Positions 1,358 to 47,345 are shown, numbered from the stretch's first letter. The stretch is DNA of 57,871 nucleotides from Candidatus Woesearchaeota archaeon (GCA_016929255.1 JAFGJH010000059.1:1-57871), one strand, 5' to 3'. The notes: generated by a model from the sequence alone, not told the origin. Program-made: numbers and translations.

Positions 1358-1480
1358 GATTCCAAAAGATGATTTCTTGGCTTTTTAACCGGAACGCAGC
1401 ACAAACTATATAAATATAAAACCACAGAACACAGGTTCAGATAGTCAAATCTGTCTTGGGCTATCAACGGGGCAGGGTAA

Positions 1481-3082: not shown

Positions 3083-3116
3083 AAAAAAATAGAACAGGCC
3101 GACCAAAGGAAAAAAG

Positions 3117-4163: not shown

Positions 4164-4262
4164 AGGATGCAAAACCGCGCAATATAAAAACCGGCACAAC
4201 AAGCTTTTTATACTCTTTCTGACAAACAAGCCATATAAAGAAAAAGCAAACAGGGGGTAAGC

Positions 4263-5438: not shown

Positions 5439-5582
5439 TGCGCACAATCCTTCGAAATTCTGCGCAAAAACAGAAAAAATGCCCGTCCGTATAACGCGGG
5501 CTGCTGAAAACCGCAACCGAAAGTTATATAAACAAAACACAAATTTTTGAGGCAGGACAAAACAAGCAAAGACGGTGAACTG

Positions 5583-6215
5583 ATGATAAAATTTGTCGGA
5601 AAATTCATCCATAAGGTGTTCAGGGACATATTCAGGAAACGCAAAGCACTAAAGATAGGTCTATACGGCCCTCCGAACGGCGGCAAGACAACGCTCGCCA
5701 ACAGGCTCTGCCTGGACTGGCTCGGCGAGGAGATGGGAAGCGTCTCTAACATAGAGCACGAGACAAGAGAGGTCCAGATAAAGGAGCGGATAACAGTCAA
5801 GAAGGACAACCATGAGCTTTCTTTCAGCCTTGTAGACACCCCTGGCATAGCCACGAAGATAGACTATGAGGACTTCATGAAGAAAGGACTGACCGAATCA
5901 GAGTCCAAGAAGCGTGCAAAGGAGGCCACAAAAGGTGTCATCGACGCCATAAGATGGCTAGACAACATGGACGTGGTCGTAGTCGTGCTAGACGCCACAA
6001 AAGACCCGTACTCGCAGGTCAACATAACAATAATAGGCAACCTCGCAGCAAGGGACATACCTGTCCTTGTCGTGGGCAACAAGACAGACCTGAGGAAGGC
6101 GAGCATAAAGAAGATCAAGGCGGCCTTCCCGCAGTACGATGTCATAGGGATATCAGCGAAGAAAGGCACGAACATGGAGGAGTTCTACGAATCCCTGTTC
6201 GTCATAGCAGGATGA
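5583..6215 (+). CDS. Small GTP-binding protein (TRAFAC GTPase)
   Basis: G1 GPPNGGKT, G3 VDTPG, G4 GNKTD, G5 ISAKKG. ATG at 5583 with GGTGA 6 nt upstream is preferred over the TTG at 5547, which lies immediately after the TATA box at 5524-5532. Confidence 0.75.
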   Translation: MIKFVGKFIHKVFRDIFRKRKALKIGLYGPPNGGKTTLANRLCLDWLGEEMGSVSNIEHETREVQIKERITVKKDNHELSFSLVDTPGIATKIDYEDFMKKGLTESESKKRAKEATKGVIDAIRWLDNMDVVVVVLDATKDPYSQVNITIIGNLAARDIPVLVVGNKTDLRKASIKKIKAAFPQYDVIGISAKKGTNMEEFYESLFVIAG

Positions 6216-6637
6216 GGTTTCAGAAGATGGGACTCACACTACAATTTGTTCCTTACATGGAAATCGAGAACCTGAGCTCGATAGGCAGGATCAGGAAACT
6301 GCTCAACGCAGTCAAAGAGGACAAGATAGTCCTGCTGGAAGGCAGGCTCAAGAAGGAAGAGGAAGCTGAGCTCATCAAGACGACGATGGAAGAGATAAAC
6401 TCAGAGTTCAGGGGCATCGAGCTGGCAGTCGTATACCCTGCGGCGCACAACATGGCAGCTTTCAGGAAGCTGAAGCAGCAGTTCATCAACATGCTGCTCG
6501 GAGACAGGCAGGGTCTGACGATAATAGGCCCCGCATCCATAGTCAAGGAGATAAAGAAAGACCCCAACAAGATACAGCTTTTCACGACGGACGATAGGTC
6601 TAAACCCAAGAAGGCCAGGAAGAAAGCCAAGAGCTAA
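6212..6637 (+). CDS. Conserved archaeal protein resembling the DUF2073 family, function unknown
   Basis: ATG overlaps the GTPase stop (ATGA coupling). The motif KIVLLEGRL..EEEAELIKTTMEEI resembles the small proteins encoded next to this GTPase in other archaea (recalled from memory, not searched). Lys-rich tail. Confidence 0.5.
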   Translation: MRFQKMGLTLQFVPYMEIENLSSIGRIRKLLNAVKEDKIVLLEGRLKKEEEAELIKTTMEEINSEFRGIELAVVYPAAHNMAAFRKLKQQFINMLLGDRQGLTIIGPASIVKEIKKDPNKIQLFTTDDRSKPKKARKKAKS

Positions 6638-6645
6638 GATACACC

Positions 6646-7041
6646 ATGCCTCACCAATGCGTCAGATGCGGAAAATTCTATGAGGATGGAGACTCAACGC
6701 TCCTTCAGAAGGGCTGCTCGTGCGGGTCAAGGCTCTGGTTCTTCGTCAAGAAAGAATCAATAGATAAAGCCAAGACAATAAACACCAACCTCACGCAGGA
6801 GCAGAAGGTGCAGATCGAGGAGGATGTCCGTGAGATAATAGGCGAAACAGACCCTGATGAGCCCGTGGTGCTGGACCTCGAGTCCATACGCGTGACAGAG
6901 CCCGGCAAGTTCGAGCTCGACCTCGTGCAGCTCTTCAACAAGGACAAGCCGATAGTCTTCAAGCTCGCAGAAGGCAAGTACCTGATAGACATACCAGAGA
7001 CCTTCCAGAGAAGAAGGGAGCTGGGCGAGAAGCACGAGTGA
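6646..7041 (+). CDS. Zn-ribbon protein (DUF2072-like)
   Basis: 131 aa. N-terminal CxxC...CxC ribbon (CVRCGKFY...GCSCGS). Third gene of the GTPase triad. Confidence 0.6.
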   Translation: MPHQCVRCGKFYEDGDSTLLQKGCSCGSRLWFFVKKESIDKAKTINTNLTQEQKVQIEEDVREIIGETDPDEPVVLDLESIRVTEPGKFELDLVQLFNKDKPIVFKLAEGKYLIDIPETFQRRRELGEKHE

Positions 7042-7075
7042 CTATTTCTTGTAATCTAAAATGAAAAATACAAAA

Positions 7076-7280
7076 ATAATGCCGACTCGTGGACTCATCG
7101 GCATCATTAAGCATTAAAAAATGCATAATGCATTTTTTCAAATACAAAGATAATCCCGACTCCCTGCGGTCGTCTGGGATAATCAAGCATTTGAAAACAC
7201 AAAATCCCGACTTTACGGATAATCCTGCGGATTATCCCACTTGGCAACAGGTTGTCAATCATCGGGATTTTGCATTTCTC
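7076..7280. repeat. Cluster of three related hairpin units plus a 23-bp perfect palindrome (possible ncRNA or operator array)
   Basis: Unit 1 stem ATGCCGA/TCGGCAT (7078-7104). Palindrome AAAAAATGCAT-A-ATGCATTTTTT (7116-7138). Unit 2 stem ATCCC/GGGAT (7153-7180). Unit 3 outer stem AAATCCCGA/TCGGGATTT (7202-7210 / 7262-7270) encloses hairpins GGATAATCC/GGATTATCC and TTGGCAAC/GTTGTCAA. Each unit is followed by GCATT. Confidence 0.45.
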
Positions 7281-7283
7281 AAA

Positions 7284-7462
7284 TGGGACGGCGGGGACTT
7301 TCATGTTGTTGAACAACAATTTGAACCCCGAACCCCACGGTATCTGACAATCATCCCCTTGCGGGTCATCATACCGTATGGCATGAAACGGCCTTCAGCC
7401 GTGTGCTCTTTTCTGCCGCGAGCCTCGCAGGCTCGGCAGGTCCCAGATTGAGCTACCGTCCC
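7284..7462 (-). tRNA. tRNA-Phe (anticodon GAA) with three introns; CCA not encoded
   Basis: The minus strand parses exactly (179 nt) as GGGACGG-TA-GCTC-AATCTGGGA-[32 nt]-GAGC-A-CACGG-CTGAAG-[51 nt]-A-CCGTG-GGGTT-CGGGG-TTCAAAT-[22 nt]-CCCCG-CCGTCCC-A. The spliced 74-nt product has fully Watson-Crick stems and closely resembles known archaeal tRNA-Phe. Confidence 0.85.
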
Positions 7463-7702
7463 ATCGACCGCTCTTTGTTGTCTCTCATCGGCATAAAGCC
7501 TCGACAATCTGGGTGGTCATACGAAGAATCTGATTGATTTATATAACTTTTGGTGCTTGGCTGTTCCATCCCGCACAGCCACAGCGCGCTCCGTCCTCTT
7601 CTTAAACAGCATCTTTCACCGAGTGTTGAACTCTGGATCATTATCCCACAACGTCGCAAGGCGGCAGTGGCTGTGTGGGCCGGTTTTAGAATTAGACTCT
7701 GA

Positions 7703-8200
7703 TCAGCTGAGGTCCTCTTCCTCGACATCAATGGGATCTTCAGGAGCGCCCCCTTTCTTCGGCACCTCGTCCTCCTTGTCATCACCGAACGAGAAATCAT
7801 CGGGCTTATCCGCTGATGCCGACTCCTCCTTTGGCTCTTCCTTCTCTTCGGCAGGCGCCGGTTCCGGCTTCGCAGCAGCCCCCGGACCTTCTGCTTCCTG
7901 CGGCACACCCTCCTTACTCACGACGTCAAGCGTACCGAACTTCCCTGTCGTCAGCTGAAGCTCACCCTGAAACTCGCCAACATAGCCTTTCTGGATCTTG
8001 ACCTTGTCACCCACGCGGACCTTCTCAATCTGCTCATTCCACAAAGAAAGCTTAACCCTGCCGGTGCCGTCCTTTATCAGCGCATTCGCGACCTTACCCT
8101 GCCTACCAAACTTGCTGAACTCACGGACATCACTCATCTCAACAACTTCACCTTCGACATCAACATTCGTCTGTCTCGGCTGCAGGTCTTTTATGAACAT
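7703..8200 (-). CDS. Single-OB-fold ssDNA-binding protein (SSB/RPA-like) with acidic C-terminal tail
   Basis: 165 aa. One OB-fold-like N-terminal domain (VDVEGEVVEMSDVREF...GKVANALIKDGTGRVKLSLWNEQ), then a Pro/Ala/Glu-rich linker and an acidic tail ending DPIDVEEEDLS. Confidence 0.7.
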   Translation of the reverse strand: MFIKDLQPRQTNVDVEGEVVEMSDVREFSKFGRQGKVANALIKDGTGRVKLSLWNEQIEKVRVGDKVKIQKGYVGEFQGELQLTTGKFGTLDVVSKEGVPQEAEGPGAAAKPEPAPAEEKEEPKEESASADKPDDFSFGDDKEDEVPKKGGAPEDPIDVEEEDLS

Positions 8201-9738: not shown

Positions 9739-10086
9739 ATGGCGCAAAAAGTTGCAAAAGTAGGTGTCAAGAAACAGGCAGGGTACCTCTACTTCGTCGA
9801 CAGACATGGCGACGTATCCTGTGCAAAGATGGCCCGCGGCAAGGGAAAGAAGGCCGGCGCTGTCAAGAAAGTCGCCAAGGTCGGCGTCAAGAAGAAGGGT
9901 GGTTTCCTCTACTTCATCGACAAGCAGGGTGACATATCCTGTGCGAAGATGGTAAGAGGCGGATCCAAGAGGAAGAAGGCCAAGAAAAAGGTCGCCAAGA
10001 AGAAGGCCAAGAAAAAGGTCGCCAAGAAGAAGGCCAAGAAAAAGGTCGCCAAGAAGAAGGCCAAGAAAAAGGCGAAGAAGAAGTAA
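9739..10086 (+). CDS. Small lysine-rich protein with two 39-aa repeats and an H1-like KKAKKK tail (candidate nucleic-acid-binding protein)
   Basis: 115 aa. Strong SD AAGGAGGT. Repeat VAKVGVKK.(A/G)G(Y/F)LYF(V/I)D..GD(V/I)SCAKM(A/V)RG occurs twice, then (KKVAKKKAKK)n encoded by a 24-nt tandem DNA repeat at about 9967-10075. Confidence 0.65.
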   Translation: MAQKVAKVGVKKQAGYLYFVDRHGDVSCAKMARGKGKKAGAVKKVAKVGVKKKGGFLYFIDKQGDISCAKMVRGGSKRKKAKKKVAKKKAKKKVAKKKAKKKVAKKKAKKKAKKK

Positions 10087-10181: not shown

Positions 10182-11714
10182 ATGATAAAAGGACAGGTGG
10201 TGGGAGGAGAGCTCGGGAAGGTATGCATAAGGCAGAAGGCCGACGCCTGCCTCGAGATAGGCGAGCTCCTTGTAAGCGGCGACGACAGGCAGAAGATACT
10301 CCTCCAGGTGTATGACCTCAACTACGGAAGCCAGATATCACAGCAGAACCTGGAGCTCATATCAGGCATGAAGCTTGAAGACAACACAGACATATCGTTC
10401 TTTGACGGCAATGTGCGCAACTACACCCTTGCCTCGGCGAAGCCCATAGCCATAATACGCGGCACAGATGTCCAGCTATGCAAGCAGCTGCCCCTGTTCT
10501 TCGGCGAGCTCAGGCAGGTCGAAGAGGCAGACCTGGACTTTATGGTCACTCCACCCAACCCTCTGTTCCTCGGCAACCTCAGGTCCGGATCAAAGATGAT
10601 GGATGTGCCGATAAGCATCCCCGGTGACAAGGTATTCTCGCACCATGTGCTCATAACATCGACGACAGGCAGAGGCAAGAGCAACCTCGTCAAGGTCATG
10701 CTCTGGAGCGCAGTCGACAAGGGATATTGCGGAGTTATTGTTCTAGATCCGCACGACGAATACTACGGCAGGAACGGACCAGGGCTGAAGACGCACCCTT
10801 CCTCCGGAAACGTGATATACTATACACCGAGGGACGCTCCGCCAGGAGCAAAGACACTCAAGATAAACCTCAAGCAGGTGAAGCCAGACCATTTCAGGGG
10901 CGCAGTTAACTTCTCCGACGCGCAGGTCCAGGCGATGAGCGCATACTACAAGGAGTACGGCAAGAAATGGGTAGAGGCAGTCGTGCTCGAGAAGCCTCTC
11001 AAGGTAGAGTTCCAGGAAGCCACAGTGGGGGTTCTCAAGAGAAGGCTCATGCACCTGCTTGACCTAGACTTCGACGGGAGCCAGCTATACTGCAACGGCG
11101 TGTTCGACCTCAGCGCAGGAGAGACCACCATAAAGGACATCGCAGGCGAGGCAGAGCAGGCCAAGACAGTCATAATAGACACATCAGGATTCTCAGGAGC
11201 AGTCGAGATAATGATAGGCAGCATGGTCACGACAGAGATATTCAACAGGTACAGGGGCTATAAGGCAAAAGGCCAGTTCGACAGCAGGCCGGTGGTCTCA
11301 ATTGTGCTCGAGGAGGCGCCCCGCGTGCTCGGAAAAGAGGTGCTGGAGTCAGGCGCCAACATATTCAGCACAATCGCCCGCGAGGGAAGGAAGTTCAAAG
11401 TGGGGTTGACAGCCATAACGCAGCTGCCTTCTCTCATACCCCGCGAGGTGCTCGCGAACATTAACACAAAGATAATACTGGGCATAGAGATGAAGCCCGA
11501 ACGTCAGGCCATAATCGAATCAGCATCGCAGGACCTGTCCACAGACGACAGGAACATAGCATCGCTCGACAAGGGAGAGGCGATAGTCACGAGCAACTTC
11601 GTAAAGTTCGCCACGCCCATAAAAGTCCCTCTTTTCACGCAGCATATAAAGAAAAGCCAAAAAGATAATAAACCAGAGAGACATCCGAGCTTCGAGGGAG
11701 TCAGGCTGACCTGA
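10182..11714 (+). CDS. HerA-like ATPase (HerA/FtsK superfamily, DUF87-type) with N-terminal barrel domain
   Basis: 510 aa. Walker [11 protein letters not shown], Walker B-like [30 protein letters not shown] motif. Confidence 0.8.
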
Positions 11715-11744
11715 CCCTGTCCGAATTCCTTTCCAAAAACAAAG

Positions 11745-12557
11745 GTGATCAAGCTGGGAATATACTCAGAACAAAAGAACTTCAGGAAGAACCTTGAATC
11801 AGCGTTCCCTCTCGCGAAGAGGGCTGCAGGCGAGGCAGGGCAGCTTGATGTCAAGATATTCCTAAAATTCCTGAAAAAGCACAAGCTTTTCGGGGAGTCG
11901 CTGAAGCAGGAGATTGCAGAGATATATGACCTGCTCCACGAGTCATGGGAGCTGGCCGAGGAAATCCGCAATAAGCCTGAGCACGAGAAGGAGTTTGATA
12001 GGCTGAACAAGATAACGTACGAGCTCGAGACCAAGAACACTGACCTGCTGAACAAGCTGGATGCAGGCAAGCATATGATATTGCAGATGGGGAAGAACCT
12101 CAGGATGTTCTACAATGACGAGCTCAAGATACTTTCGCTCCTGAAAGAATTCAATGAAGGACTGCATCGCGAAGGCAAATTGAAGCAGGTGCCCCATGCG
12201 ACCCAGCTGGTCAATGAGGCCACCAATATACAGGGCGCGCTGCACCAGATAAAGCCACTTTTCGAGGCAATAGCCACTGCCTATGAGAAGGACTCGATAG
12301 AGATCGGAAAGATGATAGAGGAAGAGATGAGGAAGGTGGAGTACAAGGTCAGGGGAAATGATGCGCAGCATATAGACTTCAGGAAGATACTTGAGCATGT
12401 CAAGTATGTGGAAGGCCAGATTGACAAGCTCATAGAAAAGGCTGAAAAGGAGCAGAAACTGGCAAATGTCAGCCAGCGAAGTGCCAGGATGATGGAAATA
12501 CTGATAGGCAAGATGCTGGAAAGGGAAGAACAGCAGAGAGAGCGCTTCAGGGCCTGA
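11745..12557 (+). CDS. Hypothetical all-alpha/coiled-coil protein
   Basis: 270-aa ORF (GTG start) 30 nt after the HerA-like gene. Codon usage matches its neighbours. No recognisable motif. Confidence 0.5.
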   Translation: MIKLGIYSEQKNFRKNLESAFPLAKRAAGEAGQLDVKIFLKFLKKHKLFGESLKQEIAEIYDLLHESWELAEEIRNKPEHEKEFDRLNKITYELETKNTDLLNKLDAGKHMILQMGKNLRMFYNDELKILSLLKEFNEGLHREGKLKQVPHATQLVNEATNIQGALHQIKPLFEAIATAYEKDSIEIGKMIEEEMRKVEYKVRGNDAQHIDFRKILEHVKYVEGQIDKLIEKAEKEQKLANVSQRSARMMEILIGKMLEREEQQRERFRA

Positions 12558-12586
12558 AACGCTATTTAATACACTTCTGAACCATA

Positions 12587-12598
12587 ATATTTATATAG
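12587..12598 (+). promoter_or_regulatory. TATA box
   Basis: ATATTTATATAG lies about 26 nt upstream of the ATG at 12624. Confidence 0.45.
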
Positions 12599-12623
12599 TT
12601 TTAATGACTAACTAGTGGTTACT

Positions 12624-13106
12624 ATGGGTGGGATAGACCACATAACAGTCAGGTTCTCGGAAATTGAGCTTGGTGGCAGCGAGCTAGAGCTCTCCCTTGA
12701 GAAAGAGGTGTGGGATTCTGTGGAAGGCACCCCCAACGAACATGTCGAATGGCATGTATATTATGTCCGGGCGTATAAAGCCGGTGAGATGACAGAAGAG
12801 CCTGCAAGGATGAAGGCAGAGATAGGACGTACATTGTACTCACGCGAGACCCTGCCGCCCAGACCCTGCTATACAGAAGGCGACACACAGGTAATCGTAA
12901 ACTTCCTGCTTCTCCTGGCACACCTGAAAGGGAACGGAGCCAGAGCGACAGTATCTTCAGACAGCACAGGTCTTTTCGAATCATTGGGCACTCTCGAAGG
13001 ATTCAGCGCAGACAACATCCTCAATTTGTGCGCAAGCAGGAACCGCCATACATTCACCGGAGTCGGCATGCATAACAGCTATCCGCCGCCACTTACAGAG
13101 CACTGA
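12624..13106 (+). CDS. Hypothetical protein
   Basis: 160-aa ORF from the ATG at 12624 (the track ORF begins at the GTG at 12615). No recognisable motif. Confidence 0.4.
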   Translation: MGGIDHITVRFSEIELGGSELELSLEKEVWDSVEGTPNEHVEWHVYYVRAYKAGEMTEEPARMKAEIGRTLYSRETLPPRPCYTEGDTQVIVNFLLLLAHLKGNGARATVSSDSTGLFESLGTLEGFSADNILNLCASRNRHTFTGVGMHNSYPPPLTEH

Positions 13107-13210
13107 GCCATTTTCTTCTTGAATCTTCCATCAGCCAGGCAAGACTAAAAAACAAAAGCTTAAAATATACCGCTCGGCTGCATCAACCCAATAAACCAAA
13201 GAAGGTGAGC

Positions 13211-14143
13211 ATGTTGATGAGCGAAAGAGGGATGCAAAGAGAATTCGCGGATCTTGAACAGAGCATACTTCTGATTGACCATTCCATGAGCGGCGTCATG
13301 GAACACGCCAGCAAGAGCAGCGACGATGAGACCCTCCGCTTTGCCAGGGCACTGCATTTCTTCTTCAGGAACAGGTCAAAATTCCTGAAGAATCTCGCAT
13401 CCGCGGCAAAGAAAGTCAACCAGCAGGAGCTGATTGATGAGAAGGCTGACCAGGAACTCCTGTCGCTCCTGAATGAAGCGGAAAGCGGCCACAGGTTCTC
13501 TCCGTCCGAAGTGGCGGCGAAACTCGAGAAATCATTCGACCTCTTCAGGCATGTCATGAGGATGCAGGTCATATACCACATATCAGACCAGATAGGCAGG
13601 ACAAGGTTCAATGTAGCAAGGCCGATAAAGATACGGACAGAGCTCCTGGAGAAGATGCGCAGCATCTTCAGTATGACTGGCTTCGAGAGGATGCTGACCT
13701 CTGACAACCGCGCCAGGCTTAGGAACGTATTGACTAAGCTAATTGAGAAACGCTACCCTGACCTCCTCAAGTTCTCAAACGAACTTGACCAGAAGGTCGC
13801 CTACTACAACTTCAGGTTCCAGGAGATGTACAACATACTCTGCACAATGCATATGTTCAAAGAGCCTGAAACAAAGAAAGGGTTCTGGGCAGCAGTCTTC
13901 GGCACCCAAAAAAAGAGCCCGCAGCTGCTCACGTTGACCCCTGCACAGAAGAAGAGCGACATCGAGAGGGTCCGAGTGAGCCTTCACAAGAGGATTGGCG
14001 AACTGCACAGATCATTTGAGGATATCAAGACTGCGCGCGACAGTACCGAGAGGGAGATGCAGCAGATCAAAGAAGACGAGGCAGAGCTGAGAGGCATCTT
14101 TAAAAAATGCTTTATAGGGAGAGATTTGAGGCGTTTAAGGTGA
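13211..14143 (+). CDS. Hypothetical coiled-coil protein
   Basis: About 310-aa ORF. GAAGGTGA precedes ATGs at 13211 and 13217, so the start is ambiguous. No recognisable motif. Confidence 0.5.
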   Translation: MLMSERGMQREFADLEQSILLIDHSMSGVMEHASKSSDDETLRFARALHFFFRNRSKFLKNLASAAKKVNQQELIDEKADQELLSLLNEAESGHRFSPSEVAAKLEKSFDLFRHVMRMQVIYHISDQIGRTRFNVARPIKIRTELLEKMRSIFSMTGFERMLTSDNRARLRNVLTKLIEKRYPDLLKFSNELDQKVAYYNFRFQEMYNILCTMHMFKEPETKKGFWAAVFGTQKKSPQLLTLTPAQKKSDIERVRVSLHKRIGELHRSFEDIKTARDSTEREMQQIKEDEAELRGIFKKCFIGRDLRRLR

Positions 14144-14347
14144 TTCTTGGCTTTTAAACCACCATTTTCTTTTTATCTCTTGAATTTTTTGCTTTTTCTT
14201 CCATTTGGGCGGTTTTAAACCTTTTTTTGTCTAATTTTGCTGTTTAAACGGCTTTTTTTGCTTTGTTTTTTTTGGAAAAAATATATAAACTCGTTATGTT
14301 TTATCACTAAATCGTAATAACAATGTAGGAACGATGTAAGGGCGCTT

Positions 14348-14986
14348 TTGTGTCCTAAATTGCCGGGGGGATGCAGTTTGTTCAGCGGAAGTTCAGCAAG
14401 AAGAATTGAAGAACAGATAGATGAGATCCAGAAGCTCGCAGACATCGAGTTCGTGCTGCGCTTCCACCGCGAGACCATCGGACCCAACGGTCTTGTCGAC
14501 CATCTTTATCTGGACCTTTCAGACAACATAAAGAGCGACCCTGAACGGCCTGCTCTTGTTGAGGCCCTCAGAAAGGCGATCAGATGCGATGAGTTCTATC
14601 AATCGATAGATTACATCGCTTTAGACATCAAAAACCGAAGAACATCAAAAACTGATTTCTACAAGGCAGTCGACTTTGCCGCCACCACTCAAAACAGGCA
14701 TGTTGACGGCCAAAAAACAAAACGGATATTCGTAGCCAGCATCAGTGACGTGACCAGGGTCGCCGGAAAGATCCTGGAGCATGTGGCATACATTGAGAGG
14801 AACGAGTTCCTGCTCCCGATGATAGTAAGCGTAGACGGTCTTGATTACTTCCATAATTCTGCCAAGGACGGCTCTTTTGTTGAACCTCAGTTCAGGCCTT
14901 CATTCTACAGCACATTCTACCGAGAGACGCACGGCTTCAGGGAGTGGGTTGAAGCGACGGCAAGAATGATGAGTTTTTTTCATTAA
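14348..14986 (+). CDS. Hypothetical protein
   Basis: 212-aa ORF with only TTG in-frame starts near the 5' end. TATA AAATATATAAA at about 14279-14290. No recognisable motif. Confidence 0.4.
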   Translation: MCPKLPGGCSLFSGSSARRIEEQIDEIQKLADIEFVLRFHRETIGPNGLVDHLYLDLSDNIKSDPERPALVEALRKAIRCDEFYQSIDYIALDIKNRRTSKTDFYKAVDFAATTQNRHVDGQKTKRIFVASISDVTRVAGKILEHVAYIERNEFLLPMIVSVDGLDYFHNSAKDGSFVEPQFRPSFYSTFYRETHGFREWVEATARMMSFFH

Positions 14987-14994
14987 GACAAGCA

Positions 14995-15155
14995 GGCTCT
15001 GTCCCGAATATCGCTTCGCGGGCCAGCGCCAGGTCCGGCTTAGCAAATAACATACAGAAGGCGCTGCCTCCCGTATGAGCCTGCCCCTGCTACGCGCGGG
15101 CAGCATTAAGAAATAAGCACCACAAAGGGCGCTGACCTCGACTTGGGACAGAGCC
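14995..15155. mobile_element. MITE-like element (161 bp) with perfect 11-bp TIR and 9-bp target-site duplication
   Basis: TIR GGCTCTGTCCC (14995-15005) pairs with GGGACAGAGCC (15145-15155). Direct repeats AGACAAGCA flank it at 14986-14994 and 15156-15164. No ORF inside. Confidence 0.7.
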
Positions 15156-15200
15156 AGACAAGCAGAAACCTATTTAAACAATATCATATGTTCTATCTCC

Positions 15201-17918
15201 ATGCGCAGGTTCGAAAAAGAGGAGATGGGACAAAGGTCAAAGATAGTGGCCCTTTGCCACAGCATATACCAGCTGTTCAACGAGAAGAGGAAAGAGCTGG
15301 CAGTTGACTGGAAGGAAGAGTTCAACAAAGGAGGGGTCGAGAGGGTCGAACAGCTCTTCAACAGGACCCTGGAAGTCGTCTACCAGCAGATAAGTGCAGT
15401 CTCTCAGCTATCAGAGCTCATAAGACAGCAGGACGCAGAAGTGAGGAAATCTGCAGGAAGGCTCGGCAAGCACCTGGACTACGCATCATTGGTCAAATCA
15501 CACTTCTCATTCGCGACAATAGCCGGCGAGATGATCAAGAAAGAAGAGCTTGACACAGAGAAACTCCTTGAACTTCTCCGGAAGCTGTTCTTTGACCTCA
15601 GCGAACAGAAAAAGAAGCTTGATTCTGTGAAAAAACAGGGTGCGGGAAAGCAGGCATATGCTGAAGTTGATATCAGGAGCCTGGCACAGACCGAGTTTAA
15701 GATACTGCAGAGCATAACACCGTTCTGGAACGAATGGGAGACCCTTGTCCCGAAGATAGAAGCCTTGGTATCCAACATAGGCCAGGCCAGCGAGGAGGAC
15801 CTGGATAGACTGAAGAAAGACATCAGGAAACTTCTTGACTCGTACCACAAGAGCTTCGCCAATGACGAACAGGCATCACAGCTCGGCACAGAGCTCGCGC
15901 TGAACCTCGCGATCAACGATACAAAAGAGATGGATGCTCTCGGAGGGAAAGTCCCCGTAGCAATAGTCAACGTCGACATGACTGCATGCAACTCCCTTGA
16001 CACGTCCCACAAACTCGGCGACGCGCTTATACAGACAGCATATAAAGAGCTTGACCGCAGGCTCAGGAGGGAGTTCACGATAATCGAACAGTACGAGCGG
16101 AAGGGGATCATAGACGGCAAGGGTGTCGTGACCATCCTCGGAAGGACAAGGCTGAAGATAGTCGGCATAGGCAAGAAGGAGATAGAAGACGCGCTGAAAG
16201 AGGTGCCCCCTATAGTCCGCAAACAGCTTGTAGACACTTTCAGCGGACAGTTCCAAGGCGCAGACCTTCAATCCCTCAAGAACCTCAACACCCGCCTGCT
16301 GGCAGGATACCATGAGCTGGATGTCGGAAATGAGCGCAGGCAGTTCGTCTACAAGCTCGTTTATTTCAAACTGACCTCAGAAGGCTATCTGAAGGATATC
16401 ATCCAGCCCTACACCGGAGAGCTCGACGCAAAGGTAGAAAGAGAGAGTGCGCTCGCAGAGCTGAAGGAACTCGAGAAGCAGATTGCACAGAAGATAGACG
16501 ACGCGATAAAGCACGCAGCGGCAAAGGCAGAGTATCTGGAGAAGATGTTCCTCCCTGACTACGAGGGCAGGAAACTGGGCGAGCTCAAGAAAAGGATGGA
16601 AGAGGAGCACATACCGCCTGTGGAGACCCCTGTATTCGTACAGAGGATAAACGCCATCGAAAGGGAGGTGCTGGCAGATTTCCCTGCTGTAGTCATCTAC
16701 GACGGGAAGTTCGAGCCGAAGTCAGCCTGGATAGGCCTCAACTACATACCAGAGGAGGAGTTCGAAGGAAAGATGATAAACAGGGTCGCGCACCAGATAG
16801 GGCTGGACAACCACCTGGCAGAAGAGCTGTTAAGGCTGTTCCATGAATGCCGGCAGAAGAGAAAGGACGGCAAGCTGGAGCCGGAAGACGCGAAAAAGCT
16901 CCACGAGCTCAAAGAGAAATTCTATCTTGACGTGCTGCAGAAGAGACACCTCGCAAAGAGCTATGACCTCAGGTTCCCCGCCTCACTGCGCGAGGACTCG
17001 TTCGACCAGGTGCTCGCGGCGATGACGCTCATAGAGGGCCCGCAGGTCATGACGTTCTTCGAGTTGGACGGGTTCAACGCATTCAACAAGCTGTACAGGC
17101 CAGACAAGCAGGACACATACTACCATTCCGTTCTGAAGATGATGCTGACGCATTTCGACGAGGTCTTCAATGAGGGGGTCGCCGAGCAGTACGCGATAAA
17201 GCCCAGGATGGTCAAGCAGGGCGACGAGATATGGATCAGCTATCCCCTGACTTCAGAGAGGGGAAAAGTGTCCGAGAAGGAGCACATGAAGTTCCTCGAA
17301 AGGGTCAGGAGATCGCTCGTGAGCCTCTCTCTCGGCGAAGCCCTCAAAGTTCCGAACCAGAGGACGATAGACTGGATACCCCTGCGCATAGACAACAAAA
17401 TTCTCCTGCATCTTCACCTGCAGAACTGCTTCAGGAAGTCGAAGCAGGTTTTCTATGTCGACAACAGCAAATTCACTCACGACCGTCCGCAGTCAGAGAA
17501 GCACATAGAGGTAACTCCCCTGAACCAAGAGGGGCTCTTCGGCAGTTATTTCACTATGGTCAGGATAATCGGCGCGAACAAGAAAGAGGACTTCACAGAC
17601 TGGAAGTCCATCAGTCCCGCGAGGGAGGTGACTGGAGATGGGGATTTCGGGCCAGAAAAATTCATTTTCTCATCGATGCTGTTCGAAGAGACCGTCAAAC
17701 TGCTTTCAGACGGCGCGTCAAGCAGGCTGAAGACAGGAAGGGTCATAAGGCTGGGCACCACCGCAGGATATGCCGGGTTCAGCAGGCCTCTGATGCCAAC
17801 AGCACCCAAAGAATCGGAACTGATAAGGGGCAGGCTGAACGAGGCAGTCGAGAAGATGCGCCATAGGAAAGGCCGCGGCGGGATATACAACCTTGAGAAG
17901 GAAGGTTTCGCTTTTTGA
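15201..17918 (+). CDS. Large (905 aa) orphan protein with coiled-coil regions and two divergent nucleotide-cyclase/GGDEF-like palm signatures
   Basis: aa 253-320: VAIVNVDMTACNSLDTSHKLGDALIQTAYKEL. aa 616-680: VMTFFELDGFNAFNKLY...VKQGDEIWISYP. The second aligns by eye to the class III cyclase core in this window (MTVMFSDLRGFTAMSEKL...KFVGDEIMALFG). Confidence 0.55.
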   Translation: MRRFEKEEMGQRSKIVALCHSIYQLFNEKRKELAVDWKEEFNKGGVERVEQLFNRTLEVVYQQISAVSQLSELIRQQDAEVRKSAGRLGKHLDYASLVKSHFSFATIAGEMIKKEELDTEKLLELLRKLFFDLSEQKKKLDSVKKQGAGKQAYAEVDIRSLAQTEFKILQSITPFWNEWETLVPKIEALVSNIGQASEEDLDRLKKDIRKLLDSYHKSFANDEQASQLGTELALNLAINDTKEMDALGGKVPVAIVNVDMTACNSLDTSHKLGDALIQTAYKELDRRLRREFTIIEQYERKGIIDGKGVVTILGRTRLKIVGIGKKEIEDALKEVPPIVRKQLVDTFSGQFQGADLQSLKNLNTRLLAGYHELDVGNERRQFVYKLVYFKLTSEGYLKDIIQPYTGELDAKVERESALAELKELEKQIAQKIDDAIKHAAAKAEYLEKMFLPDYEGRKLGELKKRMEEEHIPPVETPVFVQRINAIEREVLADFPAVVIYDGKFEPKSAWIGLNYIPEEEFEGKMINRVAHQIGLDNHLAEELLRLFHECRQKRKDGKLEPEDAKKLHELKEKFYLDVLQKRHLAKSYDLRFPASLREDSFDQVLAAMTLIEGPQVMTFFELDGFNAFNKLYRPDKQDTYYHSVLKMMLTHFDEVFNEGVAEQYAIKPRMVKQGDEIWISYPLTSERGKVSEKEHMKFLERVRRSLVSLSLGEALKVPNQRTIDWIPLRIDNKILLHLHLQNCFRKSKQVFYVDNSKFTHDRPQSEKHIEVTPLNQEGLFGSYFTMVRIIGANKKEDFTDWKSISPAREVTGDGDFGPEKFIFSSMLFEETVKLLSDGASSRLKTGRVIRLGTTAGYAGFSRPLMPTAPKESELIRGRLNEAVEKMRHRKGRGGIYNLEKEGFAF

Positions 17919-17963
17919 ACATCTCATTCGTTCGGCAGCCAGGCCGCAGCGCAGCTTCAAAAG

Positions 17964-18108
17964 GCAGCACCGCCACGCTGCTAAACTTATGTTAGCTGCT
18001 AATCGCACATTTTCATGACCTTGCTTGCGCAATAACCGTTGTTTGTTGCGGAAGTGCAGCCCATCCCGCTTCTTTTGCCAACCGGCGCTAAAGCGGTGGC
18101 AGTGCTGC
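17964..18108. repeat. GC-rich MITE-like intergenic element, family 1, copy A
   Basis: Imperfect TIR GCAGCACCGCCACGCT / AGCGGTGGCAGTGCTGC. Shares the internal core GTGCAGCCCAT(C/T)CCGCTTCT with copies at 18141, 45785, 47060 and 49498. Confidence 0.6.
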
Positions 18109-18140
18109 AAATAATAGCTAAACAAATACAATAATTTCAC

Positions 18141-18243
18141 GGACCGCGCTTGCGCCATAAGCGCAGTTGCTGTCAAAGTGCAGCCCATTCCGCCTGTCTT
18201 GTCTGAGTGCACGCCATGAGCGGTGGCACTGCCGGGACAATAA
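18141..18243. repeat. Family 1 element, copy B (5'-truncated, tandem to copy A)
   Basis: Has CTTGCGCC...AAGTGCAGCCCATTCCGCC...GAGCGGTGGCACTGCC but lacks the left arm. Confidence 0.5.
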
Positions 18244-18275
18244 GCGGCGCTGCAGAAACAAGTACAGCCAGTCTA

Positions 18276-18752
18276 TCAATAGCACCTGGAATCATGCGCA
18301 GTGGTGTCAGCAAGGCCCACGATACGCCTATGGTTGCCGTGCTTCTCTGCGCAGTCCTGGCGAAGGCCTTTGACCAGCGTGTAGACCGCTTCTATCTTCT
18401 GGTCAAGGGGTGAGCGGTCCTTGTCCGCAATCTTCCTGCAACGCGAATAGAGCGCGCCGCATCTGCCATGCTCCTCCTCAAGCAGATCTTCTGACCAGTC
18501 ATATCTGCTCAACGGAGAGGCCTGCCTGAAAAGGAGTTCCATCTGGTCGAGGCTTGCGAATGTCTCTGGAAGCTGGAACGTGTCTTTCTCACGCTTGATC
18601 CTTGCCTGCTCATAATTGTTGAGCATGTACTTCAGCACAATCAGTGCTTCGATATATGTGGAAGAATCAGCGATATCTTTCGGGCGGAGTATAGCTTCAT
18701 AAAGCTTTTCAGCAAGTCCTGCATCATGTTTTGCATCTTTGTCAGCAGTCAT
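18276..18752 (-). CDS. Hypothetical protein
   Basis: 158-aa ORF divergent from mre11. No recognisable motif. Confidence 0.4.
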   Translation of the reverse strand: MTADKDAKHDAGLAEKLYEAILRPKDIADSSTYIEALIVLKYMLNNYEQARIKREKDTFQLPETFASLDQMELLFRQASPLSRYDWSEDLLEEEHGRCGALYSRCRKIADKDRSPLDQKIEAVYTLVKGLRQDCAEKHGNHRRIVGLADTTAHDSRCY

Positions 18753-18880: not shown

Positions 18881-20095
18881 ATGAAATTCGCCCATATCGC
18901 AGACGTGCACCTCGGAAGCTGGAGAGAGCCTAAGCTGAGAGAGCTCAACGCCAGGGCATTTGTTGAGGCGGTCAGCAGATGCCTGTCCAAGCGGGTAGAT
19001 TTCGTTCTCCTGGCAGGAGACCTGTTCAACACGAGCATACCTTCTATCGAAAGCCTCAAGCTTGCAGTGACTGAACTTAAGAGGCTGAAGGACGCAGGCA
19101 TACCTGTCTACACAATCGCAGGAAGCCATGACTTCTCTCCATCAGGGAAGACCATGCTTGAAGTGCTTGAAGAGGCAGAACTGCTGAAGAATGTCTGCAA
19201 AGGGGAGGTGGCTGATGGAAAGCTCAAGCTGCACTTCACAACAGACAGGAAGACAGGAGCGAAGATAACAGGCATGATAGGGAAGAAAGGCATGCTGGAA
19301 AAGAAATACTACGGAGACCTTATGCATCAGAACCTCGAACAGGAGCAAGGGTTCAGGATATTCATGTTCCACACAGCGCTGTCAGAGCTCAAGCCAGAGT
19401 ATATGGAGCATATGGAAGCCGCACCGCTCTCGTTGCTGCCGAAGGGATTTGACTATTATGCGGGCGGGCATGTGCATATCGTAAAAGAGGCGAGCATATC
19501 AGAATACAGGAACATAGTCTATCCCGGCCCGACATTCCCTAACAGCTACACAGAGCTGGAAAAGCTCGGGTGCGGTGGTTTCTACATCTATGATGGCAGC
19601 AGCGACAGCAGGCTTGTCTATGAGCGAATCGAGCTCTGCCCCGTGGTTCCCATAAGCATCGACTGCATGCACAAGACTCCCCAGCAGTCCACAGAAGACA
19701 TCCTCGACGCGCTTGCCGGCAAGGAGATGAAAGACGCGATAGTCCTCCTCAGGCTGGCCGGAAGGCTAGAGACAGGAAAGACATCAGAAGTAGATATCAA
19801 AATGGCGACAGATATCATGCACGAGAGGGGGGCGTGCTTTGTGATGAAGAACACCACTAAGCTCGTGTCAAAGGAGTTTGAAGAGGTCAAGGTGAAGGCA
19901 GACACTACAGAGGAGGCAGAGAGGCTCGTCGTCGAAGAGCATGTCGGGCAGGTCAAGTCTCTTGAGCTGACACCTGAAGCAGAGAAGGGTCTTGTTCATC
20001 AGCTCATGACGGTCCTTGACAAGGAGAAAGAGGAAGGCGAGAGGCAGTCAGACTACGAGGCAAGGATAATAGCAGAGATGGAGAAGATATTCTGA
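18881..20095 (+). CDS. mre11: Mre11 DNA double-strand-break repair nuclease (calcineurin-like phosphoesterase)
   Basis: 404 aa. Phosphoesterase motifs HIADVHLG, LLAGDLFN, AGSHD, GGHVH. No rad50-like gene adjacent. Confidence 0.85.
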   Translation: MKFAHIADVHLGSWREPKLRELNARAFVEAVSRCLSKRVDFVLLAGDLFNTSIPSIESLKLAVTELKRLKDAGIPVYTIAGSHDFSPSGKTMLEVLEEAELLKNVCKGEVADGKLKLHFTTDRKTGAKITGMIGKKGMLEKKYYGDLMHQNLEQEQGFRIFMFHTALSELKPEYMEHMEAAPLSLLPKGFDYYAGGHVHIVKEASISEYRNIVYPGPTFPNSYTELEKLGCGGFYIYDGSSDSRLVYERIELCPVVPISIDCMHKTPQQSTEDILDALAGKEMKDAIVLLRLAGRLETGKTSEVDIKMATDIMHERGACFVMKNTTKLVSKEFEEVKVKADTTEEAERLVVEEHVGQVKSLELTPEAEKGLVHQLMTVLDKEKEEGERQSDYEARIIAEMEKIF

Positions 20096-47059: not shown

Positions 47060-47253
47060 CTGCTGACCCGCAGTCGGCTGCTATCCACTTATATTTCTGG
47101 CCATGCGCTCAAAGACCTGCTATGCAGGGGTCTTTGGCGTCCTAAAATGCTACGCATTTTATGACTTGTGCAATATCCGCACATTTCAGAACAAGCGCAG
47201 CCCATTCCGCTTCTCAAGTCAGAGGATGCACAATAAGCGGCAGCAGTGCCGCC
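47060..47253. repeat. Family 1 MITE-like element, copy D (longer variant)
   Basis: Arms CTGCTGACCCGC / GCGGCAGCAG. Core GCGCAGCCCATTCCGCTTCT. Carries the extra hairpin CAAAGACC/GGTCTTTG. The intergenic region is bracketed by ACCTACTTTC(A/G)GAAA direct repeats (46985-47000, 47272-47288). Confidence 0.55.
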
Positions 47254-47345
47254 AATAATGGCTAAACAAATACCTACTTTCGGAAAACCAACAACACCGG
47301 AAAAAAAACAAAAGCTTTATAATCACTAATCCTGTCTTCAGGGGC

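What the first reader, a model, noticed from the sequence alone, without database searches (positions are those of the whole stretch)
10182..17918. Co-directional block: HerA-like ATPase, four orphan ORFs and a 905-aa double-palm protein (candidate uncharacterised system)
Six same-strand genes occupy 7.7 kb. The first is a HerA/FtsK-superfamily ATPase with an N-terminal barrel. It lacks the partners usually found with HerA (NurA, Mre11, Rad50); mre11 sits alone about 1 kb downstream of the block, on the same strand. The following ORFs (270, about 160, about 310 and 212 aa) have no motifs I recognise. The last gene encodes a 905-aa coiled-coil protein with nucleotide-cyclase-like palm signatures. 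In bacteria, HerA-family ATPases combined with effector or signalling proteins recur in defence systems. A HerA plus putative cyclase or polymerase combination in a small archaeal genome would be new. The evidence for linkage is only adjacency and shared orientation: several intergenic gaps carry their own TATA boxes, and one gap holds a MITE.
Basis: inference. Interest (0 to 1): 0.7.

Follow-up and report, generated by a model that had tools for sequence, protein, structure and literature searches.

The report
GGDEF-type cyclase island between herA and mre11
In a small clade of Woesearchaeota (tiny DPANN archaea), a variable group of genes lies between the DNA-repair genes herA and mre11; its constant core is a GGDEF-type nucleotide cyclase, here a very divergent 905-aa two-palm version, which matters because GGDEF/c-di-GMP signalling is considered almost absent from archaea.

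Summary
The six same-strand genes exist as described. Gene 1 is a HerA ATPase closest to the archaeal repair HerA. Gene 6 (905 aa) is a tandem GGDEF-type palm protein. Palm 1 has no acidic residues in its hairpin. Palm 2 keeps E-x-D-G-F-N-A-F-N, K-Q-G-D-E-I-W and K-G-R-G in all 13 family members. Pfam does not detect it, but profile-profile and fold comparisons do.

Two sister lineages have all six slots in the same order, with a canonical Pfam GGDEF protein replacing the 905-aa gene. The four orphans are real, fast-evolving, clade-restricted families. They are dispensable and come and go in pairs (2+3, 4+5). Other lineages have HerA directly next to the palm gene, unrelated inserts, or no HerA.

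The constant unit is the palm gene, a small downstream gene and mre11. The whole neighbourhood is collinear, so synteny alone cannot prove function.

My reading is a variable signalling island with a GGDEF-type core, inserted in the herA–mre11 repair cluster. It is not shown to be a HerA-dependent defence system. I rate it a new variant of a known kind, of moderate to high interest.

The parts
10182..11714 (+). herA: FtsK/HerA-superfamily hexameric ATPase (510 aa). Probably the housekeeping repair helicase and the left flank of the island.
   Evidence: Pfam DUF87 3e-24. NCBIfam repair-HerA models are the best hits. Best PDB hit is 4D2I, Sulfolobus HerA, 1e-24. It is 95/76/74/70% identical in relatives, and dN/dS is 0.064.
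11745..12557 (+). ORF2: 270-aa all-helical protein, 30 bp after herA with no TATA box of its own, so probably co-transcribed with herA.
   Evidence: Seven family members, all from this clade, share the invariant motifs LDVKIxLxFLKKHKLFG and IKPxFEAIxTAYE. The AF2 model has pLDDT 74 and is a helical bundle with no specific Foldseek match. dN/dS is 0.165.
12615..13106 (+). ORF3: about 160-aa orphan (likely start 12624) with its own TATA box. It is always found together with ORF2.
   Evidence: Homologues are present in L001 (74%), L019 (45%) and L020 (42%). dN/dS is 0.284. It has no family or PDB match.
13205..14143 (+). ORF4: 312-aa orphan that looks helical from its sequence (no structure was predicted), with its own BRE/TATA and followed by oligo-T runs.
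   Evidence: Homologues are present in L004 (27%), L019 and L020 (about 23%). phmmer gives 7e-30, 3e-9 and blastp 2e-8. The word-based search of 5.8 billion proteins found only the window's own copy.
14348..14986 (+). ORF5: 212-aa orphan with a conserved LDYF motif (DGLDYF in three of four members) and a conserved FRP...R.W C-terminus. It is always found together with ORF4.
   Evidence: Homologues are present in L004, L019 and L020 (phmmer 7e-18 and 3e-12). It has no family or PDB match.
14995..15155 (.). MITE-like 161-bp element with 12-nt terminal inverted repeats, in the ORF5-to-905 gap.
   Evidence: The DNA fold pairs 14995-15006 with 15144-15155. A 73% identical copy lies at a different locus in the sister genome, L001 21408-21521.
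15201..17918 (+). 905-aa tandem GGDEF-type (double-palm) protein with its own TATA box; the ATG lies so close to the box that the transcript is probably leaderless (inferred).
   Evidence: The family has 13 full-length members, all Woesearchaeota/Nanoarchaeota. AF2 mean pLDDT is 67. Foldseek finds adenylyl cyclase 9, GGDEF, Cas10/Cmr2, sGC and Thg1-like proteins. dN/dS is 0.12.
15948..16325 (+). Palm 1 (aa about 250-375): degenerate GGDEF-like domain. The hairpin reads G-x-G-V-V-T...GRTR and has no acidic residues.
   Evidence: The model's beta-alpha-alpha-beta-beta-alpha-beta order. hhalign to a canonical GGDEF domain is in register at E 0.0085. Motif table for 13 members.
17043..17915 (+). 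Palm 2 (aa about 615-905): GGDEF-like domain with the catalytic set kept and an insertion of about 140 aa (aa 709-851).
   Evidence: hhalign to the canonical GGDEF of L019 gives E 6e-5 and 4e-5, probability 66-71%. E621-x-D623-G-F-N-A-F-N629, D638, K672-Q-G-D-E-I-W, R887 and G891-R-G are invariant or nearly invariant in 13 members.
18276..18752 (-). Small (158-aa) protein, helical in appearance (not modelled), convergent with the 905-aa gene. It is the constant companion of the double-palm gene.
   Evidence: It lies next to the 905-family gene in all 11 distinct loci, the window included. Both canonical-GGDEF loci lack it and have a + strand 96/170-aa gene instead. Its dS of 1.29 matches that of the 905-aa gene (1.40), against 0.27-0.73 for the other eight genes compared.
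18881..20095 (+). mre11: DSB-repair nuclease and right flank of the island.
   Evidence: Pfam Metallophos 3e-16. The best NCBIfam hits are archaeal Mre11 equivalog models. It is present in every related locus.

Best explanation
The block is not one six-gene machine. It is a variable gene island lodged between two housekeeping DNA-repair genes, herA and mre11, which are normally operon neighbours in archaea. The region around it is a replication and repair neighbourhood of a small Woesearchaeota clade.

Core of the island. The constant core is a GGDEF-type nucleotide cyclase plus a small downstream partner gene. In this window the cyclase is a 905-aa tandem form. Palm 2 keeps the residues that in diguanylate cyclases bind metal, guanine and phosphate. 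I infer that it condenses GTP, or GTP plus another NTP, into a cyclic di- or oligonucleotide. Palm 1 has lost its acidic residues. It most likely serves as a regulatory or acceptor half-site, as in Cas10 and in the C1/C2 pair of mammalian adenylyl cyclases. The long helical N-terminal and linker regions would be the sensing and dimerising parts.

Accessory genes. The four orphans form two optional gene pairs (ORF2+3, ORF4+5). They are lineage-specific accessories, probably sensors, receptors or effectors of the signal.

Shown versus inferred. Shown: gene content, homologies, motif conservation and the presence/absence pattern. Inferred: enzymatic activity, the product, and any role for the orphans, HerA or Mre11.
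For: - Palm assignment. Foldseek hits are all cyclase, GGDEF, Cas10 or Thg1 palms. hhalign of Palm 2 against a canonical GGDEF gives E 4-6e-5, and Palm 1 aligns in register at E 0.0085.
- Catalytic motifs are invariant in 13 members down to 34% identity.
- In-situ equivalence. L019 and L020 carry a Pfam-recognised GGDEF protein in the same slot. It matches WspR at 5e-27 and PleD at 4e-24. L020 has an RSSD I-site and GGEEM.
- Variable content between herA and the palm gene: ORFs 2,3,4,5 (window, L019, L020); 2,3 (L001); 4,5 (L004); two unrelated ORFs (L023); nothing (L003, L005, L006, L017). There is no HerA at the locus in L016 and L008.
- The palm gene and its small partner have dS 1.3-1.4, against 0.27-0.73 for the other eight genes compared. 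This suggests a separately exchanged module.
- herA and mre11 are the best conserved genes of the region, and herA scores best against repair HerA.
- All the genes are under purifying selection.
- Background knowledge: herA and mre11 are adjacent in the canonical archaeal herA-mre11-rad50-nurA cluster.
Against: - Pfam GGDEF and Guanylate_cyc do not detect the 905-aa protein, even on isolated domains.
- hhalign probabilities are only 66-71%. The AF2 model is mediocre (pLDDT 67, pTM 0.38), so the Palm 1-Palm 2 packing is unknown.
- The motif is QGDEI, not GGDEF, and there is no RxxD I-site.
- No phosphodiesterase or known c-di-GMP receptor was found in the window.
- HerA sits directly upstream of the palm gene (32-122 bp) in four lineages (L003, L005, L006 and the deepest one, L017). 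This could reflect a real functional link rather than a flank.
- All related loci belong to one collinear clade, so neither linkage nor independence can be demonstrated by synteny.
Confidence: 0.5

Rival explanations
1. Integrated HerA-dependent conflict or defence system. HerA with ORF2 forms a motor complex. The orphans sense or execute. The GGDEF-type cyclase makes a signal nucleotide on infection, in the manner of CBASS, type III CRISPR, or Sir2-HerA and DUF4297-HerA systems.
For: - The HerA-ORF2 gap is 7-30 bp with no promoter, so they are likely an operon.
- HerA directly precedes the palm gene in L003, L005, L006 and L017.
- The orphans and the palm protein evolve fast and are patchily present.
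- The core module has raised dS and has been displaced in situ.
- HerA also scores on anti-phage HerA models, although more weakly.
Against: - HerA is the most conserved gene of the region (dN/dS 0.064). It scores best on repair HerA and on 4D2I.
- The locus is fixed in a core replication and repair neighbourhood in every genome seen. It is not sporadic or mobile.
- No recognisable effector (nuclease, Sir2, TIR, transmembrane protein), CRISPR array or Cas gene is present.
- L016 and L008 keep the palm module without HerA.
- No relatives are found on viral contigs.
Confidence: 0.22
2. Repair-coupled signalling. The cyclase monitors or regulates HerA-Mre11 end resection. This would be a DisA-like DNA-integrity checkpoint that uses a GGDEF-type enzyme, or control of the HerA motor by a nucleotide. 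The small proteins would act as adaptors. In an extreme version the island substitutes for the missing Rad50/NurA.
For: - The palm gene lies next to mre11 in every locus and next to herA in most.
- No rad50 or nurA is present in the 58-kb window.
- The 905-aa protein is of Rad50 size and has long helices.
- Reviews cite c-di-GMP regulation of DNA repair in Vibrio (PMC10249747).
Against: - The 905-aa protein has no Walker A/B or ABC signature, and its only Rad50/SMC fold matches are weak ones with probability 0.05 or less.
- The palm gene is transcribed separately and is separated from mre11 by an opposite-strand gene.
- rad50 and nurA may lie elsewhere in the genome, which I could not test.
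- The accessory genes are dispensable.
Confidence: 0.15
3. Neighbours by descent only. The genes are unrelated in function. The 905-aa protein is either a catalytically dead scaffold or an independent signalling enzyme, and the orphans are unrelated lineage-specific genes.
For: About 25 flanking genes, including ProRS, AspRS and TGT, are equally collinear across the same genomes. Most genes in the block have their own promoters. No orphan family was found outside this clade (ORF2 and ORF4 in the 5.8-billion-protein search, ORF2 and ORF3 in contig scans; ORF5 was checked only in the fetched loci), so co-occurrence cannot be tested.
Against: A divergent GGDEF-type gene was replaced by a canonical one at exactly the same slot, which argues that position matters. 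ORF2+3 and ORF4+5 are lost as pairs. The Palm 2 catalytic residues are strictly conserved, which argues against a dead scaffold.
Confidence: 0.13

Closest known systems
GGDEF diguanylate cyclases (PF00990; PleD, WspR, DgcB, SiaD)
   Same: Palm 2 aligns to a canonical GGDEF domain from beta-1 to beta-4. ELDGFNAFN corresponds to DIDHFKQFN, QGDEIW to GGEEIM, and KGRGG to SGRNQ. A coiled-coil stalk lies upstream, as in DgcB and SiaD, which are among the Foldseek hits. Sister lineages carry a true GGDEF protein in the same slot.
   Different: It is not detected by the Pfam model. The first Gly of the motif is Gln. There is no RxxD I-site. About 140 aa are inserted between alpha-3 and beta-4. A second, degenerate palm lies upstream in the same chain. 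The host is archaeal, where GGDEF is described as almost absent (PMC10249747, PMC10086821).
Cas10 (Cmr2/Csm1) of type III CRISPR-Cas
   Same: One polypeptide of about 900 aa holds two cyclase-type palms. The first is degenerate and the second carries a GGD[DE]-like motif. Cmr2 and Csm1 structures are among the Foldseek hits.
   Different: There is no HD domain, no Cas10 profile hit in PADLOC, no csm/cmr genes and no CRISPR array in the window. At sequence level it is closer to GGDEF than to Cas10.
Class III adenylyl/guanylyl cyclases with tandem C1-C2 domains (e.g. AC9)
   Same: A tandem palm pseudo-heterodimer with one competent and one degenerate site. AC9 is the top Foldseek hit (E 3e-4).
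   Different: There is no Pfam Guanylate_cyc hit, and TM-scores are very low (0.12). The motif pattern is GGDEF-like, not class III. The window does encode a true class III cyclase elsewhere, at 37710-39344.
Archaeal herA-mre11-rad50-nurA DNA end-resection cluster
   Same: herA and mre11 are on the same strand, about 7 kb apart, in a replication and repair neighbourhood. HerA scores best against the repair HerA equivalogs and 4D2I.
   Different: rad50 and nurA are not in the window. Six or seven unrelated genes lie between herA and mre11.
HerA-containing anti-phage systems (Sir2-HerA, DUF4297-HerA) and cyclic-nucleotide defence systems (CBASS, mCpol-type)
   Same: A HerA ATPase lies next to fast-evolving partner genes and a nucleotide-cyclase-type enzyme. 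The content is patchy across relatives.
   Different: No Sir2, DUF4297, SAVED/CARF or other known effector or sensor was found. The HerA is of the repair type. The locus is fixed in the core genome.

Membership tests
HerA (FtsK-HerA superfamily ATPase) | HerA central/DUF87 P-loop domain with Walker A and Walker B | tested here: met
   PF01935 3.3e-24 over aa 130-351. Walker A reads TTGRGKSN and Walker B reads IVLEEA in the translation. PDB 4D2I matches at 1.2e-24.
HerA (FtsK-HerA superfamily ATPase) | Adjacent NurA nuclease partner | tested here: not met
   No NurA profile hit among the ORFs scanned, which cover most ORFs of 120 aa or more in the window. NurA could lie elsewhere in the genome.
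Archaeal herA-mre11-rad50-nurA cluster | mre11 next to herA | tested here: met
   mre11 is at 18881-20095 on the same strand. It lies near herA in every related locus that has herA.
Archaeal herA-mre11-rad50-nurA cluster | rad50 (ABC ATPase with coiled coil and zinc hook) in the cluster | tested here: not met
   The 905-aa protein has no Walker A, no SMC/AAA_23 hit, and only weak Rad50/SMC fold matches (probability 0.05 or less). No other ORF of Rad50 size is in the window.
GGDEF diguanylate cyclase (PF00990) | Match to the family profile | tested here: not met
   No PF00990 hit for the whole protein, for isolated palm regions at E up to 10, or for any of 9 members. JGI names one member (P0007) 'GGDEF domain-containing'.
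GGDEF diguanylate cyclase (PF00990) | Homology of the palm to a bona fide GGDEF domain by profile-profile comparison, and the palm fold | tested here: inconclusive
   hhalign of Palm 2 against the L019/L020 GGDEF gives E 5.7e-5 and 3.7e-5 at probability 66-71%. Palm 1 gives E 0.0085. Foldseek finds GGDEF, AC and Cas10 hits with low TM-scores.
GGDEF diguanylate cyclase (PF00990) | GG[DE]EF hairpin and acidic metal ligand in beta-1 | tested here: met
   Palm 2 has K-Q-G-D-E-I-W and E-x-D-G-F, invariant in 13 members. The first Gly is Gln. Palm 1 lacks the acidic residues (G-x-G-V).
GGDEF diguanylate cyclase (PF00990) | RxxD inhibitory site five residues upstream of the motif | tested here: not met
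   Residues 664-667 are Y-A-I-K. The canonical GGDEF protein of L020 has RSSD.
GGDEF diguanylate cyclase (PF00990) | Synthesis of c-di-GMP from GTP | not testable with these tools
   This needs an enzyme assay. N629, D638, R887 and R892 align with the guanine- and phosphate-binding positions of PleD as I recall them, which is a lead rather than a test.
Cas10 / type III CRISPR-Cas | Cas10 profile, HD domain, csm/cmr genes and a CRISPR array | tested here: not met
   PADLOC gives no Cas10 hit, only a weak Cas7g hit at E 0.022. There is no tandem array. No Cas genes are found in the related loci.
Class III nucleotide cyclase (PF00211) | Match to the family profile | tested here: not met
   No hit. 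The model does detect the true class III cyclase at 37710-39344 (1e-34).
Known HerA-based defence systems (Sir2-HerA, DUF4297-HerA) | Sir2 or DUF4297 effector next to HerA | tested here: not met
   ORFs 2-5 and the 905-aa protein have no significant PADLOC or Pfam hit.

The most novel reading that the evidence does not exclude
A clade of DPANN archaea has a vertically inherited, chromosomally fixed GGDEF-type second-messenger module. Its cyclase has evolved into a Cas10-like tandem-palm enzyme. Together with HerA and four clade-specific proteins it would form a new signalling or defence machine coupled to DNA-end processing. This would be the first archaeal c-di-GMP-type, or new cyclic-nucleotide, pathway, and a new partner set for HerA.
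Probability: 0.2. Interest if true: 0.85.

Novelty: new variant of a known kind. Interest (0 to 1): 0.6.

Why it matters
- Reviews state that c-di-GMP has never been detected in archaea and that GGDEF proteins are almost absent there, with archaeal occurrences still awaiting confirmation (PMC10249747, PMC10086821). Here both canonical and highly derived GGDEF-type genes sit on unmistakably archaeal contigs, next to MCM, OapB/C, HerA and Mre11, and are inherited across a clade. This gives concrete candidates for testing archaeal GGDEF signalling.
- The 905-aa family is invisible to Pfam and shows an independent route to a Cas10- or AC-like tandem palm.
- The locus offers a small natural experiment. 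Core and accessories are swapped in and out between two repair genes. This could reveal receptors or effectors of a new nucleotide signal, or new HerA partners.

Tried and rejected
- Rad50 substitute. The 905-aa gene has Rad50's size and long helices and sits by mre11, but it has no P-loop or ABC signature, no SMC hit, and only weak Rad50/SMC fold matches with probability 0.05 or less. Rejected as a homologue. A functional substitute cannot be excluded.
- Cas10 / type III CRISPR. No HD domain, cas genes or array.
- Internal duplication of the 905-aa protein. hhalign of the N-terminal half against the C-terminal half, and of Palm 1 against Palm 2, was not significant (E 0.2-0.5). Only a faint shared K-x-A-x-x-x-E-Y/AY-x-E motif was seen.
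- Function of the orphans. Pfam, NCBIfam and PADLOC, PDB profile searches for ORF2, ORF3 and ORF5, and an AF2 model of ORF2 with Foldseek gave nothing specific.
- Wider distribution.
  - The genome-contig scan returned only the loci already known.
  - The metagenome-contig scan added two new loci (L021, L023) from the same clade.
  - The ORF2 scan of metagenome contigs found nothing.
  - The viral-contig scans for the 905-aa, ORF2 and ORF3 families found nothing.
  - The exhaustive HMM search found only about 13 full-length members, plus the module embedded in a few giant proteins.
- Literature searches for HerA with GGDEF or diguanylate cyclase, or for DPANN HerA/Mre11, found nothing relevant.
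- The bacterial promoter/terminator scanner was not used, because it does not cover archaeal promoters. TATA boxes were read by eye.

Full report
**1. Observation**

- The first is a HerA ATPase. Pfam DUF87 scores 3e-24, and several PADLOC and NCBIfam HerA models match. The best NCBIfam models are the two 'DNA double-strand break repair helicase HerA' equivalogs. The best solved structure is Sulfolobus HerA, 4D2I, at 1e-24.
- ORFs 2-5 and the 905-aa protein hit nothing significant in Pfam, NCBIfam or PADLOC.
- mre11 follows at 18881-20095.
- TATA-like boxes precede herA, ORF3, ORF4, ORF5 and the 905-aa gene. The 30-bp herA-ORF2 gap has none.
- The ORF5-to-905 gap contains a 161-bp element with 12-nt terminal inverted repeats. 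The sister genome has a related copy at another locus.

**2. Origin and context**

Homologues of the 905-aa protein come only from Nanoarchaeota/Woesearchaeota MAGs.

The window upstream carries replication genes: an RFC/Cdc6-like AAA protein, a short MCM-like protein, a GTPase, OapB, OapC and SSB. Downstream lie NUDIX, AspRS, TGT and others. This order is kept in the related contigs. Gene-order conservation inside this clade is therefore weak evidence for functional linkage.

No rad50, nurA, cas genes or CRISPR arrays are in the window.

**3. The 905-aa protein**

*Family size.* The family is tiny. An exhaustive HMM search of 1.84 billion representatives found about six full-length clusters. 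It also found the same module inside a few giant proteins of 1977-3803 aa.

*Model and fold.* An AlphaFold model built from nine sequences (pLDDT 67, pTM 0.38) shows:
- a helical N-terminus (aa 1-245);
- a beta-alpha-alpha-beta-beta-alpha-beta domain (aa 250-375);
- a 60-residue helix and a helical region (aa 400-612);
- a second domain of the same kind (aa 615-860) interrupted by a poorly predicted insertion of about 140 aa;
- a C-terminal helix.

Foldseek against the PDB returns only nucleotide-cyclase-type palms among its meaningful hits: adenylyl cyclase 9 (3e-4), the GGDEF enzymes SiaD, DosC and DgcB, Cas10/Cmr2, soluble guanylyl cyclase and Thg1-like proteins. TM-scores are low because the inter-domain arrangement is uncertain.

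*Profile comparison.* Palm 2 aligns to a canonical GGDEF domain at E 6e-5, and at E 4e-5 with the insertion spliced out (probability 66-71%). ELDGFNAFN falls on DIDHFKQFN and QGDEIW on GGEEIM. Palm 1 aligns in the same register at E 0.0085, but its hairpin reads G-x-G-V and has no acidic residues.

*Conservation.* In all 13 full-length members, down to 34% identity, these residues are invariant or nearly so: E621-x-D623-G-F-N-A-F-N629, D638, K672-Q-G-D-E-I-W, G846-R, R887 and G891-R-G. From my recollection of PleD, these are the metal, guanine and phosphate ligands of diguanylate cyclases. That is a lead, not a test.

More precisely, the protein is a tandem GGDEF-type protein with a degenerate first palm and an apparently competent second palm. 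The arrangement parallels Cas10 and the C1/C2 adenylyl cyclases. Pfam does not recognise it, so I do not file it as a member of PF00990.

**4. Comparative genomics of the block**

| Locus | Gene order |
|---|---|
| L001/L002 (sister; 905 family 75% identical) | herA, ORF2, ORF3, 905 |
| L003, L005, L006 | herA followed after 84-122 bp by the 905-family gene |
| L017 (most divergent, 34%) | the same, with a 32-bp gap |
| L004 | ORF4 and ORF5 homologues before the palm gene; upstream is cut by the contig end |
| L023 | herA, two ORFs unrelated to ORFs 2-5, then the palm gene |
| L016 | collinear neighbourhood, no herA at the locus |
| L008-L010 | a transposase-like gene upstream, no herA |
| L019 (261-kb contig), L020 | herA, ORF2, ORF3, ORF4, ORF5 homologues in order, then a 508/517-aa coiled-coil protein with a canonical Pfam GGDEF domain, a small + strand gene, mre11, NUDIX |

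The L019 GGDEF domain matches WspR at 5e-27 and PleD at 4e-24. The L020 protein carries an RSSD I-site and GGEEM.

These points follow:
- The stated refutation test, no synteny anywhere, fails.
- The orphans are real families: ORF2 7 members, ORF3 4, ORF4 4, ORF5 4.
- The orphans are gained or lost as pairs (2+3 and 4+5) and are dispensable.
- The slot next to mre11 always holds a GGDEF-type gene.
- The minus-strand 158-aa gene accompanies every 905-family gene (11 loci). It is replaced together with that gene in the two canonical-GGDEF loci.

In a midpoint-rooted NJ tree of Mre11, the canonical-GGDEF lineages are nested among 905-bearing ones. This suggests in-situ displacement of one GGDEF-type gene by another, but the rooting is not secure.

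**5. Evolutionary rates**

Against the sister genome all comparable genes have dN/dS of 0.06-0.28, so they are functional genes. herA is the most constrained, at 0.064.

Synonymous divergence of the 905-aa gene (1.40) and the 158-aa gene (1.29) is two- to five-fold that of the other eight genes compared (0.27-0.73). This suggests that the pair has a separate history, for example allelic exchange. The NG86 estimate is close to saturation, so the result is indicative only.

**6. Interpretation**

The most economical reading is as follows. herA and mre11 are neighbours in the canonical archaeal herA-mre11-rad50-nurA cluster (background knowledge). Here they are conserved housekeeping flanks. The material between them is a variable island whose constant core is a GGDEF-type cyclase plus a small partner. 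ORF2+3 and ORF4+5 are optional accessory pairs.

I infer that Palm 2 condenses GTP, or mixed NTPs, into a cyclic di- or oligonucleotide. Palm 1 would be a regulatory or acceptor half-site. The helical regions would sense and dimerise. None of this is shown.

The rivals are:
The tight herA-ORF2 spacing and the repeated herA-palm adjacency support it. The repair-type, highly conserved HerA, the fixed core-genome location, the missing effectors, and the lineages without herA count against it;
- a repair-coupled signalling role, like a DisA checkpoint or control of HerA/Mre11;
- simple neighbourhood by descent.

**7. Comparison with known systems and novelty**

The nearest families are GGDEF diguanylate cyclases (homology of Palm 2), Cas10 and tandem class III cyclases (architecture), the archaeal herA-mre11 cluster (flanks), and HerA-based or cyclic-nucleotide defence systems (theme only).

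Reviews state that c-di-GMP has not been detected in archaea and that GGDEF proteins are almost absent there (PMC10249747, PMC10086821). I found no paper that links HerA with a GGDEF-type enzyme or describes this family.

I rate the finding as a new variant of a known kind: a divergent tandem GGDEF-type cyclase in an archaeal, clade-specific variable island. The six-gene 'system' remains a candidate. Interest is 0.6. The most novel reading not excluded is a HerA-coupled archaeal cyclic-nucleotide machine, which I put at about 0.2.

Noticed in passing
window 37710-39344 (-): A 544-aa GAF-GAF-class III adenylate/guanylate cyclase (Pfam Guanylate_cyc 1e-34). This is a second, unrelated cyclic-nucleotide enzyme in the same small-genome archaeon.
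   Followed up: no
window 32162-33517 (+) to 34782-37115 (+): A second DUF87/HerA-like ATPase (451 aa) is followed by two orphan ORFs and a 777-aa T2SSE-type secretion or pilus ATPase. This may be a separate translocation apparatus.
   Followed up: no
window 134-8200: A replication gene cluster: RFC/Cdc6-like AAA protein, a 391-aa MCM-like protein with only the AAA+ and lid domains, a GTPase, origin-associated proteins OapB and OapC, and SSB. A replication origin may be nearby.
   Followed up: no
window 9739-10086 (+): A 115-aa lysine-rich protein with an internal duplication of about 40 aa and a 27-nt tandem repeat that encodes a KKAKKKVA tail. It is 81-99% conserved in all relatives and has no family hit. 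It may be a chromatin protein.
   Followed up: partly
window 14995-15155: A 161-bp MITE-like element with 12-nt terminal inverted repeats (GGCTCTGTCCCG). A 73% identical copy lies at an unrelated intergenic site in the sister genome (L001 21408-21521).
   Followed up: partly
window 17919-18275: The gap between the convergent 905-aa and 158-aa genes is 357 bp here but 24 bp in the sister genome. It holds two tandem units of about 125 bp (18017-18105 and 18142-18232). Short matches occur at window 47243-47273 and in L004.
   Followed up: partly
P0015 (L018 4944-10877), P0017, P0018: The double-palm module (Palm 1, the AKAEYLEK-like helix and Palm 2) also occurs inside giant proteins of 1977, 3803 and 2554 aa from other metagenomic organisms. 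One of them also has GT4 glycosyltransferase domains.
   Followed up: partly
window 15201-18752 versus L001 10001-13218: Synonymous divergence of the 905-aa gene and its 158-aa neighbour (dS 1.3-1.4) is two- to five-fold that of the other genes compared (0.27-0.73). This hints at recombinational exchange of the pair.
   Followed up: partly
L008 1-660 (-) and 9227-10042 (+): A DDE-transposase-like gene and an rve integrase flank the locus in the lineage where herA is missing upstream of the palm gene. This suggests rearrangement mediated by an insertion sequence.
   Followed up: no
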